DNA of 1,249 nt, taken from assembly GCA_000004985.1 (NCBI GenBank), contig GG739478.1. One strand, 5' to 3'. The stretch's first letter is position 1. Each line of letters begins with the position of its first letter. Under the pieces are notes generated by a model. It did no database searches. It was not told where the DNA came from and worked only from the letters and a program-made list of their open reading frames with translations. A program made the position numbers and the translations under genes. Source of the DNA: Naegleria gruberi. Lineage: Eukaryota. Below are positions 1 to 1,249 of the stretch, piece after piece.

Positions 1-162
1 TTTGTTATAGAAGCTTCAAAAAGTTGTTTGTTTGCGCTTATGTGCCTGGCAGTAGATTACATCCAAAACGAGACGAGCTGGTACAAGCTCCTCTACTGAC
101 ATAAATGACAATAAGGTTCAAATATGGATGATTGGTCATCTTTGCCATTAAGCACATACGCA

Positions 163-183
163 ATTATTGGTATTATTATTATT
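163..183. repeat. Imperfect trinucleotide microsatellite (ATT)2-GGT-(ATT)4, with a perfect (ATT)4 at 172-183.
   Basis: Read directly from the sequence: attattggtattattattatt. Confidence 0.7.
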
Positions 184-241
184 TAATATCAATCAGTATT
201 AAATAATGAAAAATGTCAAAATATAGAGAGGATAGGATCAG

Positions 242-289
242 ATTGAAAATTAATCTTGTATTGAAATTTAAATATTGAATTTAAATTTT
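242..289. repeat. AT-rich block with three spaced copies of ATTGAAA(W)TT at 242-250, 260-269 and 274-282. It also holds two copies of the perfect 8-bp palindrome ATTTAAAT at 266-273 and 279-286, 13 bp apart. Both palindromes sit within TGAA(A)TTTAAAT tandem units.
   Basis: Read directly from the sequence: gATTGAAAATtaatcttgtATTGAAATTTAAATATTGAATTTAAATttt. ATTTAAAT is its own reverse complement. Confidence 0.55.
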
Positions 290-291
290 CA

Positions 292-314
292 AGTCACTAC
301 ACTGAGTCACTACA
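292..314. repeat. Perfect 10-bp direct repeat AGTCACTACA at 292-301 and 305-314, with a 3-bp spacer CTG and a 13-bp period. It lies about 85-110 bp beyond the stop codon of the minus-strand CDS.
   Basis: Read directly from the sequence: caAGTCACTACActgAGTCACTACAaa. On the gene's sense strand it reads TGTAGTGACT twice. Confidence 0.7.
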
Positions 315-399
315 AACTGGGGTCCATATTTGAAGAGAAGGGCAACGCATGGAAATCAGATAATTTCAGTTTGGCTTTCCGTCTATTACTGTTCACTGC

Positions 400-1249
400 T
401 CATAGGTTATCAAAGGAATTGGCTTGTTGACTCTTGTGTTGGTCACCAGAACCATTGTAGAATAGACCAATATGTATCATAAATTCACTTTTAGAGGCAA
501 CTTGCTTAATAACGTCATCACTTAGTAAAACTGCAAGTTGCTTCTTGATCACTGTTGAAACAGTAAAATAAAAGGTAAAGAAGAAATAATAGGCCAGTAT
601 GAAAACCATGTGAAAGAGTATGGCAAATGTTCCTTGATAATAATCCAATATAGCTCCATAAGGCATACTTGTAATAATGCTGCTCTCTCTCAATCCAATC
701 ACAAAGAGTAAGTAACATGGGCAAAAGATTCCCACCAAGAAAATATGCCAAAACTTTAAGTAAAAATCCGAATTCAAGTTTTCAATCATGGAGGCAACCC
801 AACAGAACAAGTGGGTTGTTAAATTCACAAGAGTTACTAGTCTTGCAGCACTTGGTTTGCTTGTTGGTACGAGAATGGCCCAATATCCGAGAGAAACAAC
901 TGTCTCTGTTACCAAATTCAATTCAGCTAATATCCACAATGCATTACCATATAAAGAAATTGCCTGAATGAGCCATTGTGGCATTACGCTAAGATAGGGA
1001 AATAATGAATCTTCACCAGCTTTGCAGGCAAGAATGGAAGTCATTACTAAGAAGGCAATGTGTGAAATTGTTACAAAAAACGAATAGACCACAAATACAT
1101 TGAATGAATTATTGGTGAGATATTGTGTATAGGTCAACCAATTTGATCCTCTTGCTGTTTCACTATCTCCCACATAGTAAGCCACAACTATAGCCAGAGC
1201 CAACAAGCAAAATCTCAACAAGAGAATCCAAAAAGTAGAAATCCAACAC
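400..1249 (-). CDS. 5'-truncated CDS for a polytopic integral membrane protein of unrecognised family. The stop codon TGA is at 400-402 (minus strand). The frame stays open to the right window edge, so the N-terminus lies outside the window.
   Basis: The frame is open for 283 codons in AT-rich DNA where TAA/TAG/TGA are frequent, which is very unlikely by chance. The reverse-complement upstream of the ORF-track 'start' reads ...CWISTFWILL-LRFCLL with no stop. The codon at 1219-1221 is TTG, so the track's Met is an alternative-start artefact. The first in-frame ATG sits deep inside a hydrophobic segment (LVMTSILA) and is implausible as a start. The translation alternates long hydrophobic stretches with short polar loops. 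Predicted helices are roughly FWILLLRFCLLALAIVVAYYV, FNVFVVYSFFVTISHIAFLVMTSILA, WLIQAISLYGNALWILAELNLV, VVSLGYWAILVPT, LVTLVNLTTHLFCWVASMI, FWHIFLVGIFCPCYLLFVIGL, and the 38-residue YGAILDYYQGTFAILFHMVFILAYYFFFTFYFTVSTVI. A hydrophilic tail follows: KKQLAVLLSDDVIKQVASKSEFMIHIGLFYNGSGDQHKSQQANSFDNL*. The stop is confirmed as TGA (forward tca, 400-402). Confidence 0.82.
   Translation of the reverse strand, partial: CWISTFWILLLRFCLLALAIVVAYYVGDSETARGSNWLTYTQYLTNNSFNVFVVYSFFVTISHIAFLVMTSILACKAGEDSLFPYLSVMPQWLIQAISLYGNALWILAELNLVTETVVSLGYWAILVPTSKPSAARLVTLVNLTTHLFCWVASMIENLNSDFYLKFWHIFLVGIFCPCYLLFVIGLRESSIITSMPYGAILDYYQGTFAILFHMVFILAYYFFFTFYFTVSTVIKKQLAVLLSDDVIKQVASKSEFMIHIGLFYNGSGDQHKSQQANSFDNL

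What the first reader, a model, noticed from the sequence alone, without database searches (positions are those of the whole stretch)
400..1249. Aromatic-rich multi-pass membrane protein of unrecognised family, truncated at the window edge
The only convincing gene here encodes at least 7-8 transmembrane segments with unusually high F/Y/W content, for example AYYFFFTFYFTV, FWHIFLVGIFCPCYLLF and SLGYWAIL. The loops are very short, and the hydrophilic tail of about 47 residues carries N-x-S/T sequons (NGS; also NNS and NLT in loops). I could not match it by eye to any family signature I know. There is no HxxHH box, no PAP2 KxxxxxxRP/PSGH motif, no CDP-OH-transferase D-G...D motif, and no OR/GPCR motifs (MAYDRY, NPxxY, TYhhhhhQF). 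There are no PAQR/CREST His clusters and no CPBP EExxxR/FxxxH pairs. A single M-P-Q-W motif (nt about 973-984) weakly recalls the PQ-loop/MtN3 superfamily. It is not preceded by a hydrophobic helix and there is no second PQ repeat, so I do not claim membership. The protein is either from a family I cannot recognise unaided or a divergent lineage-specific membrane protein.
Basis: partly seen in the sequence, partly recalled or inferred. Interest (0 to 1): 0.5.

Follow-up and report, generated by a model that had tools for sequence, protein, structure and literature searches.

The report
Orphan Naegleria membrane protein, possibly lipid enzyme
The window holds the 3' two-thirds of a real Naegleria gruberi gene for a six-helix membrane protein found only in Naegleria and its relatives. 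It matches no curated family, and weak but consistent clues suggest a very distant relative of the AIG1/TMEM164 membrane lipid enzymes.

Summary
A 282-codon open frame runs on the minus strand (nt 1248-403, stop 400-402), open at the contig end. The window is an entire 1249-bp Naegleria gruberi contig. About 155 N-terminal residues are missing, and the public gene model (214 aa) starts at an internal Met.

The protein has 6 TM helices in the window, not 7-8. Full-length orthologues add one N-terminal helix.

Relatives exist only in Heterolobosea (N. fowleri, N. lovaniensis, Willaertia magna and a few unnamed contigs). Pfam, NCBIfam, PDB sequence searches and Foldseek give nothing significant, so "unrecognised, lineage-specific family" is correct.

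My best lead is a highly divergent branch of the ATGY superfamily (AIG1/ADTRP, TMEM164, GPC1, YwaF, YpjA). These are 6-TM lipid hydrolases/acyltransferases with a Thr/Ser/Cys nucleophile on TM2 and an invariant His on TM4.
- hhalign aligns the family end to end with AIG1. It puts invariant T45 and H146 on AIG1's catalytic T43 and H134. The score is not significant (P 0.11).

Confidence is about 0.45 and interest is moderate.

The parts
403..1248 (-). Coding sequence fragment: 282 codons, the C-terminal two-thirds of the gene. The 5' end runs off the contig, and about 155 N-terminal residues are missing by comparison with the N. fowleri orthologue.
   Evidence: It is 57 % identical to N. fowleri FDP41_003979 (P0002, 409 aa), whose core starts at residue 156.
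400..402 (-). Stop codon (TAA)
1156..1245 (-). Core TM1 (residues 2-31)
   Evidence: AF2 helix 2-31; KD peak 2.53
1105..1119 (-). Motif L44-T45-N46-N47-S48 at the N-terminal end of TM2. L44, T45 and N46 are invariant in 9/9 sequences, and position 48 is Ser or Thr. T45 (nt 1114-1116) is the main candidate nucleophile and S48 (nt 1105-1107) is the alternative.
   Evidence: Conservation table. hhalign places T45 on AIG1 T43. YLTNNS resembles TMEM164 YLLNPC123, which would put S48 on C123 (by eye; TMEM164 sequence verified).
1018..1110 (-). Core TM2 (residues 47-77)
   Evidence: AF2 helix 47-77, pLDDT 85-90; KD peak 2.21
862..978 (-). Core TM3, a 39-residue helix (residues 91-129). It carries invariant W105, N111, V113, V118, G121 and W123, plus E109 (8 of 9).
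   Evidence: W123 aligns with AIG1 W106.
772..831 (-). Core TM4 (residues 140-159). It carries invariant H146 (nt 811-813), the candidate general base, and I155-E156 (E or D).
   Evidence: hhalign aligns H146 with AIG1 H134 and E156 with AIG1 E144. H134 is a catalytic residue of AIG1 (PMC8123165).
685..753 (-). Core TM5 (residues 166-188) with invariant H168, Y179 and E188. It is preceded by the conserved S160-D161-F-Y loop (nt 763-771).
   Evidence: Y179 aligns with AIG1 Y169.
637..663 (-). Conserved loop motif P196-Y197-G...L-D-Y203 between TM5 and TM6
   Evidence: Y197 aligns with AIG1 Y185, in the 'WVYP' motif.
517..624 (-). Core TM6 (residues 209-244), the aromatic-rich AYYFFFTFYFTV helix, followed by the conserved KK
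403..543 (-). C-terminal tail (residues 236-282). It is poorly conserved and probably cytosolic.
   Evidence: Alignment; K+R counts
100..399 (.). AT-rich (GC 0.24-0.32) non-coding 3' flank of the gene
   Evidence: There is no credible ORF or RNA family. DNA similarity to N. fowleri stops at nt 505.

Best explanation
The window is a whole small contig of Naegleria gruberi. It carries the 3' two-thirds of an intronless gene for an integral membrane protein restricted to Heterolobosea. The complete protein has one N-terminal TM helix, a loop of about 75 residues, and a 6-TM core. The window encodes the whole core plus the tail.

I propose that the core is a very divergent branch of the ATGY superfamily (AIG1/ADTRP, TMEM164, GPC1, YwaF, YpjA/LhaT). 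Members are intramembrane lipid acyl-hydrolases or acyltransferases. They work through an acyl-enzyme intermediate on a Thr/Ser/Cys nucleophile at the start of TM2, activated by an invariant His on TM4.

Here the nucleophile would be invariant T45, or S/T48 one turn later. The base would be invariant H146. E188 and H213 lie on the same membrane face and could assist. That face is probably extracytosolic.

Shown: the gene, its truncation, the 6-TM architecture, the taxonomic restriction, the conservation pattern, and the absence of any curated family match.

Inferred: the superfamily assignment, the catalytic roles, the lipid substrate and the membrane orientation.
For: 1. The window has six TM helices. 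Orthologues have an extra N-terminal TM. That gives 7 TM = 1 + 6-TM core, the architecture reported for TMEM164 (PMC12830759).
4. hhalign of the family profile against 11 vertebrate AIG1 sequences plus human ADTRP gives an end-to-end colinear alignment, TM1-TM6 onto TM1-TM6. It pairs T45 with T43, H146 with H134, W123 with W106, E156 with E144, Y179 with Y169 and Y197 with Y185. T43 and H134 are the AIG1 catalytic residues (PMC8123165).
5. I ran 200 block-shuffled controls. None reached the 5 invariant-to-invariant identical matches (maximum 3). Only 0.5 % reached 99 aligned columns. The reversed control scored 9.0 against 17.9.
6. T45 and H146 are invariant across all members that cover them, including 25 %-identical Willaertia paralogues. 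Position 48 varies only between Ser and Thr. ATGY is described as nucleophile-variable and His-invariant.
Against: No sequence method reaches significance.
- PF04750, PF14808, PF10998, PF09529 and PF07187 never appear, even at E <= 10, for any member, sub-sequence or consensus.
- The hhalign score is P = 0.11. 12.5 % of shuffles score as well.
- hhalign against TMEM164 alone finds nothing.
- Foldseek against the PDB finds nothing, and TMEM164 is not among the 50 listed of 83 hits.

The models are mediocre: pLDDT 74 and 62, from only 12-13 sequences.

The invariant-match statistic was chosen after I had seen the alignment. The AIG1 profile is shallow.

I could not read model coordinates, so the proximity of T45/S48 to H146 is untested.

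A second conserved polar cluster (E156, S160, D161, H168), and E109/N111 in mid-TM3, are not explained by a simple dyad.
Confidence: 0.45

Rival explanations
1. A true orphan. This would be a Heterolobosea-specific 6/7-TM protein with no evolutionary link to ATGY. Its conserved intramembrane polar residues (E109, N111, H146, E156, H168, E188) would form an ion-, proton- or metal-binding site of a transporter, channel or receptor rather than an acyl-enzyme site.
For: - No significant sequence or Foldseek match to anything.
- The taxonomic range is very narrow, and the metagenome scan found nothing.
- Conserved acidic and His residues in mid-membrane are typical of transporters as well.
Against: - The colinear hhalign alignment places both AIG1 catalytic residues on invariant residues of the same type. 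It has more invariant matches than any of 200 shuffles.
- No internal repeat or pseudo-symmetry typical of transporters was seen.
Confidence: 0.38
2. A tetraspanin/MARVEL/CD20-like scaffolding membrane protein, built on a four-helix bundle with extra helices and no enzymatic function.
For: - Two fragments in the family alignment gave a weak CASP_dom (MARVEL-like) Pfam match, E 2e-4.
Against: - Those hits align only 120-150 residues, i.e. four helices, of a six-helix core.
- They share rank with soluble four-helix bundles such as ScdA, Rop and de novo designs, so they reflect generic helix packing.
- No full-length member hit CASP_dom or any tetraspanin or MARVEL family in Pfam.
- Invariant His, Glu, Thr and Asn inside helices are unusual for scaffolds.
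Confidence: 0.07
3. A PQ-loop/MtN3-type transporter, as the single M-P-Q-W motif hinted.
For: One PQ dipeptide at residues 90-91, nt 973-984.
Against: - No PQ-loop or MtN3 family among the Pfam matches at E <= 10.
- The Q is not conserved: orthologues have PKW, PRW or NPW.
- There is no 3+3 duplicated repeat.
- The motif sits in the loop before TM3 and follows no hydrophobic helix.
Confidence: 0.02
4. Not a functional gene: a chance ORF, a pseudogene fragment or an assembly artefact on a tiny contig.
For: The contig is only 1249 bp and the gene is truncated. The database model starts at an internal Met.
Against: - The ORF is almost twice the longest shuffled ORF.
- The N. fowleri orthologue (57 % identical) sits as one uninterrupted ORF on a contig of about 674 kb, and the N. 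lovaniensis orthologue (59 %) on one of about 676 kb.
- The codon-position pattern shows purifying selection.
Confidence: 0.03

Closest known systems
AIG1 / ADTRP (Pfam PF04750, FAR-17a/AIG1-like): transmembrane threonine hydrolases of FAHFA lipids
   Same: - About the same size of 6-TM core.
- hhalign aligns TM1-TM6 colinearly.
- Invariant T45 falls on catalytic T43 (YLT against FLT, start of TM2).
- Invariant H146 falls on catalytic H134 (TM4), followed ten residues later by I-E in both.
- W123/W106, Y179/Y169 and Y197/Y185 also match (catalytic residues from PMC8123165).
   Different: - No PF04750 HMM hit at any threshold, and the hhalign score is not significant.
- The TM2-TM3 segment is longer: T-to-H spacing is 101 residues against 91.
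- It has an extra N-terminal TM helix and a loop of about 75 residues.
- It has extra invariant residues: N46, E109/N111, SDF, H168, E188.
- The loop motif is PYG rather than YP.
TMEM164 (Pfam PF14808; PDB 9lw1): Cys/His, metal-assisted phospholipid transacylase
- 7-TM architecture = 1 + 6 (PMC12830759).
- Local resemblance of Y-L-T-N-N-S48 to Y-L-L-N-P-C123 at the start of the nucleophile helix (sequence verified; the resemblance itself is judged by eye).
   Different: - No sequence or profile similarity.
- Ser/Thr instead of Cys, and no His next to the nucleophile (H124 equivalent).
- No obvious E106 equivalent on the first core helix.
- Nucleophile-to-His spacing is 98-101 residues against 58.
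- Foldseek does not list it among its 50 shown hits.
YpjA/LhaT, YwaF and GPC1 branches of ATGY, and the 'hypothetical protozoan' cluster noted by Reed et al.
   Same: These branches are 6-TM, nucleophile-variable and His-invariant. They are mutually undetectable or barely detectable by sequence (10.1101/2022.07.06.498872; PMC12345273). Reed et al. mention loosely attached protozoan hypothetical proteins.
   Different: - I could not obtain sequences or models of these branches, so nothing was tested.
[quoted passage not shown]
- Naegleria is not named in that paper.

Membership tests
AIG1/ADTRP family (Pfam PF04750) | Match to the PF04750 profile above the gathering score (24.5 bits) | tested here: not met
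   No PF04750 line at E <= 10 for the window protein, 12 relatives, four sub-sequences or the consensus. The control human AIG1 scores 263 bits.
AIG1/ADTRP family (Pfam PF04750) | Catalytic Thr at the start of TM2 and catalytic His in TM4 (T43/H134 in AIG1, T47/H131 in ADTRP) | tested here: inconclusive
   Invariant T45 and H146 occupy the equivalent helices, and hhalign pairs them with T43 and H134. The alignment score is not significant (P 0.11).
ATGY superfamily (AIG1/TMEM164/GPC1/YwaF/YpjA) | Six-TM helical core | tested here: met
   Six helices by AF2 and hydropathy. The same six, plus one N-terminal helix, appear in the N. fowleri orthologue.
ATGY superfamily (AIG1/TMEM164/GPC1/YwaF/YpjA) | Variable nucleophile (Cys/Ser/Thr) on core TM2 and invariant His on core TM4 | tested here: met
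   T45 is invariant in 9/9 and position 48 is Ser/Thr in 9/9, at the N-terminus of helix 47-77. H146 is invariant in 8/8, in helix 140-159. These are the presence and position only; the catalytic role is untested.
ATGY superfamily (AIG1/TMEM164/GPC1/YwaF/YpjA) | Nucleophile and His side chains juxtaposed next to a lipid-accessible cavity | not testable with these tools
   Model coordinates are not exposed, and only secondary structure and pLDDT are returned.
ATGY superfamily (AIG1/TMEM164/GPC1/YwaF/YpjA) | Acyl-hydrolase or acyl-transferase activity on lipids | not testable with these tools
   Requires biochemistry.
TMEM164 family (Pfam PF14808) | N-P-C-H nucleophile motif with metal ligands E106, H124 and H181 | tested here: not met
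   The motif here is T-N-N-S-F, with no Cys and no adjacent His. There is no PF14808 hit. hhalign against TMEM164 finds nothing.
PQ-loop / MtN3 (SWEET) superfamily | Two PQ-loop repeats, each following a TM helix, in a 3+1+3 TM arrangement | tested here: not met
   There is a single PQ, its Q is not conserved in orthologues, and no PQ-loop or MtN3 family appears among the Pfam matches.
Tetraspanin / MARVEL / CASP-like four-TM proteins | Four-TM bundle and a family HMM match | tested here: not met
   The core has six TM helices. Only two fragments gave a sub-threshold CASP_dom hit, and no full-length member hit CASP_dom or any tetraspanin or MARVEL family in Pfam.

The most novel reading that the evidence does not exclude
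The Naegleria/Willaertia proteins form a previously unrecognised branch of the ATGY superfamily. They would be intramembrane Thr(Ser)/His lipid hydrolases or transacylases, with the active site on the extracytosolic face and an extra conserved Glu/His/Asp cluster. They exist as at least two paralogues in the pathogen N. fowleri, and I found no human counterpart. That would add an amoeba-specific lipid-remodelling enzyme that no sequence method can currently annotate.
Probability: 0.4. Interest if true: 0.55.

Novelty: new variant of a known kind. Interest (0 to 1): 0.4.

Why it matters
If the ATGY link holds, it extends a recently defined superfamily of intramembrane lipid enzymes into Heterolobosea. 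Known members include FAHFA hydrolases, the ether-lipid transacylase TMEM164 and the bacterial lipoprotein acetyltransferase LhaT.

The branch would be invisible to Pfam and HMMER. It would give a concrete, mutable catalytic hypothesis (T45/S48 and H146) for proteins now labelled 'hypothetical'. Two of them are in the brain-eating amoeba N. fowleri, and I found no human counterpart.

If the link fails, this remains an ordinary lineage-specific orphan membrane protein on a tiny, truncated contig.

Tried and rejected
Searches that found nothing significant:
- Pfam, NCBIfam and PDB sequence searches on the window protein, orthologues, paralogues, sub-sequences and the family consensus. Only sub-threshold, inconsistent hits came up: DUF7598 E 0.02, EII-Sor, Orf78, DUF7358, CASP_dom on two fragments.
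- A profile search of the 5.8-billion-protein collection with the family alignment. It returned only the four Naegleria-type proteins already known.
- A metagenome contig scan with family patterns. It found 600 pattern matches, none confirmed.
- Foldseek against the PDB. The best E-value was 0.5, bitter-taste GPCRs with TM-scores 0.25-0.3, which I reject as noise.
- hhalign against a single AIG1 sequence, against vertebrate AIG1 only, and against TMEM164. None was significant.
- Rfam and repeat scans of the window. Only a sub-threshold SNORD75 hit and short chance inverted repeats appeared.

Other dead ends:
- The AlphaFold-database Foldseek library was not available.
- My third protein search, seeded with human AIG1, listed only vertebrate AIG1 at >= 61 % identity. 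I could not build a deep ATGY profile from it.
- Synteny: the left-end open frame of the window has no counterpart next to the N. fowleri orthologue.
- From their poly-Asn tails I first guessed that P0011 and P0012 were dictyostelid. The cluster look-up shows P0012 is from Willaertia magna.

Full report
**What is in the window**

The only long open frame is on the minus strand. It runs from nt 1248 to 403, has its stop at 400-402, is 282 codons long, and runs off the right edge of the window. Mononucleotide shuffles of the window never gave an open frame longer than 153 codons.

A protein search identifies the window as a complete 1249-bp contig of Naegleria gruberi. The deposited 'predicted protein' (P0001, 214 aa) is 100 % identical to the window protein, and its longest contig is 1249 bp. 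That model starts at Met69 of the frame, so it lacks the first two TM helices encoded here.

The N. fowleri orthologue (FDP41_003979, P0002, 409 aa, 57 % identical) is encoded by one uninterrupted 1230-nt ORF. The two proteins align without large gaps, apart from the N. gruberi C-terminal tail, which is about 28 residues longer. So the window part is intron-free. About 155 N-terminal residues lie beyond the contig end.

Nucleotide identity to the N. fowleri gene is 65.7, 76.5 and 44.2 % at codon positions 1, 2 and 3. That is the signature of purifying selection on a real protein. Nt 1-399 are AT-rich 3' flank with nothing credible in them.

The quoted peptides, the MPQW motif at nt 973-984, the three N-x-S/T sequons and the roughly 47-residue tail are all present. 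Aromatic content is high: F+Y+W is 17.7 % overall and 19.6 % in the core, against 12-14 % in human TMEM164 and AIG1.

The TM count is too high. Hydropathy and an AlphaFold2 model (pLDDT 74, pTM 0.67) give six helices: 2-31, 47-77, 91-129, 140-159, 166-188 and 209-244. The full-length N. fowleri model adds one N-terminal helix and a poorly predicted loop.

K+R counts are 3.2 for loop 2-3 and 3.8 for the C-tail, against 0.9 for loop 3-4 and 1.8 for loop 5-6. The segment before TM1 is also K/R-rich. These figures suggest the tail is cytosolic. On that topology the NGS sequon is cytosolic, NLT is inside TM4, and NNS is part of an invariant motif at the membrane edge. Glycosylation is therefore unlikely. 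This is inference.

**Family and distribution**

An exhaustive phmmer scan of 1.84 billion cluster representatives found only 12 proteins. Those with names are from N. fowleri (the orthologue and a 565-aa paralogue, FDP41_013372), N. lovaniensis, and Willaertia magna (two proteins). The rest are unnamed contigs from ENA, JGI or Logan. A metagenome scan found no more. On this evidence the family is Heterolobosea-specific.

None of the following gave a significant match for any member, sub-sequence or the consensus:
- Pfam
- NCBIfam
- PDB sequence search, by single sequence and by profile
- Foldseek against the PDB

**Conservation pattern**

These residues are invariant across sequences down to 25 % identity:

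| Location | Conserved residues |
|---|---|
| N-terminal end of TM2 | L44-T45-N46; position 48 is Ser or Thr |
| TM3 | W105, N111, V113, V118, G121, W123, P128; E109 in 8 of 9 |
| TM4 | H146, I155; position 156 is E or D |
| Loop 4-5 | S160-D/N161 |
| TM5 | H168, Y179, E188 |
| Loop 5-6 | P196-Y197, Y203 |
| TM6 | H213 in most members |

So many conserved polar residues inside helices argue for an enzyme or a transporter rather than a scaffold.

**The ATGY lead**

By eye, the motifs recalled AIG1/ADTRP: 'FLT' at the start of TM2, and 'N-x3-H-x9-E' in TM4. I noted this before any structure search.

The literature gives the following:
- AIG1 and ADTRP are six-TM FAHFA hydrolases that depend on T43/H134 and T47/H131 (PMC8123165).
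- The TMEM164 cryo-EM structure is a 7-TM protein with an acyl-C123 intermediate and a metal site at H181, H124 and E106 (PMC12830759).
- YpjA is now the lipoprotein acetyltransferase LhaT (PMC12345273).

**Tests of the lead**

- *Coverage of the superfamily in the PDB.* AIG1 has no solved structure, so TMEM164 is the only ATGY member I found in the PDB.
- *Foldseek.* Nothing. The AFDB library was unavailable.
- *Source of comparison sequences.* I wrote the human AIG1, ADTRP and TMEM164 sequences from memory and then verified them. TMEM164 is 100 % identical to 9lw1_A. AIG1 scores 263 bits on PF04750 and is 100 % identical to a gorilla entry over the 95 % of its length that aligns. ADTRP agrees with all eleven residue numbers and the length given in PMC8123165.
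- *hhalign, overall.* The family profile against 11 vertebrate AIG1 plus ADTRP scores only 17.9 (P 0.11). The posterior alignment is nevertheless colinear from TM1 to TM6. The N-terminal half run alone gives the same T45-T43 pairing. The full alignment pairs:
  - T45 with T43
  - W123 with W106
  - H146 with H134
  - E156 with E144
  - Y179 with Y169
  - Y197 with Y185
- *Controls.* I ran 200 controls that shuffle AIG1 columns within 20-column blocks.

| Measure | Real alignment | Shuffled controls |
|---|---|---|
| Score | 17.9 | equalled or beaten in 12.5 % |
| Aligned columns | 99 | reached in 0.5 % |
| Invariant-to-invariant identical matches | 5 | maximum 3 (0 of 200 reached 5) |

The reversed profile scores 9.0. 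I chose the match statistic after seeing the alignment, so it is indicative only.

**Interpretation**

Three weak and partly independent lines point the same way:
- the architecture, with conserved Thr/Ser and His on the right helices;
- the best full-core structural match;
- the colinear profile alignment that pairs both catalytic residues.

No line is significant alone. A defining test for the AIG1 family proper, the PF04750 HMM, fails, and so does the TMEM164 NPCH/metal-ligand motif. I therefore do not file the protein in either family.

I propose, at about 45 % confidence, that it is a separate and very divergent ATGY-type branch. It would work through an acyl-enzyme on T45, or on S/T48 in the register suggested by TMEM164's Y-L-L-N-P-C, with H146 as the base. 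The site would lie on the probably extracytosolic face, where E188 and H213 also sit by helix position.

The E156/S160/D161/H168 cluster on the opposite face, and E109/N111 in mid-TM3, are not explained by this model.

The main rival, at about 38 %, is an unrelated orphan whose polar residues serve transport or ion binding. Tetraspanin/MARVEL-like, PQ-loop and non-gene readings are unlikely.

**Verdict**

This is a real, truncated, lineage-specific membrane-protein gene. Its 'unrecognised family' reading is supported. There is a testable mechanistic lead of moderate interest, and it needs AFDB-scale structure comparison and activity-based probing to settle.

Noticed in passing
window 403-1044 (-), public model P0001: The deposited N. 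gruberi gene model (214 aa) begins at Met69 of the open frame because the contig ends inside the gene. It omits TM1, the LTNNS motif and most of TM2, so the database entry is an N-terminally truncated artefact.
   Followed up: yes
window 549-659 (-), alternative frame; N. lovaniensis P0003 residues 387-404: The C-terminus of the N. lovaniensis orthologue (…HMELYWIIIKTHWRLSCI) does not match the family. It does match the out-of-frame ORF of the window (MELYWIIIKEH…). That gene model or assembly apparently carries a frameshift just before the PYG motif.
   Followed up: partly
window 1-99 (+): A frame open to the left edge (…FVIEASKSCLFALMCLAVDYIQNETSWYKLLY, stop TGA at 97-99) in a slightly GC-richer stretch. 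It could be the 3' end of a convergent neighbouring gene. It has no counterpart beside the N. fowleri orthologue (tblastn).
   Followed up: partly
L001 7462-9521 (-), N. fowleri contig VFQX01000036.1: The gene downstream of the N. fowleri orthologue ends with …GHSLRIGAST…GRWASD…LRY. To my eye this looks like a tyrosine-recombinase (integrase-type) catalytic motif, possibly a mobile element. It is not syntenic with the window.
   Followed up: no
P0004 (258 aa) and P0006 (154 aa), both with a longest contig of 5039 bp (ENA): These two proteins correspond to the N-terminal and C-terminal halves of one family member. They probably lie on the same contig, so they are likely one gene split by an intron, a frameshift or a gene-calling error in an unnamed Naegleria-like organism.
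   Followed up: no
window 739-786 (-), residues 155-170: A second conserved polar cluster: I155-E156, S160-D161-F-Y and W167-H168. It lies at the TM4-TM5 turn, on the face opposite the proposed Thr/His site. The ATGY dyad model does not explain it, and it could be a metal or head-group site.
   Followed up: partly
window 377-418 (-): A sub-threshold Rfam match to the C/D-box snoRNA SNORD75 (18.8 bits against a gathering score of 50, E 0.075) overlapping the stop codon. This is most likely chance.
   Followed up: no
P0002 residues 90-137 (N. fowleri), outside the window: The part missing from the window contains a strongly conserved segment between the N-terminal TM helix and the core: C-G-C-S-K-T-S-W-K-N-F…L-P-L-G…N-A-L-A-F-I-N-E-N-G-S-F-A-L-F-Q-S-T. 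It is modelled with low confidence and its function is unknown.
   Followed up: no
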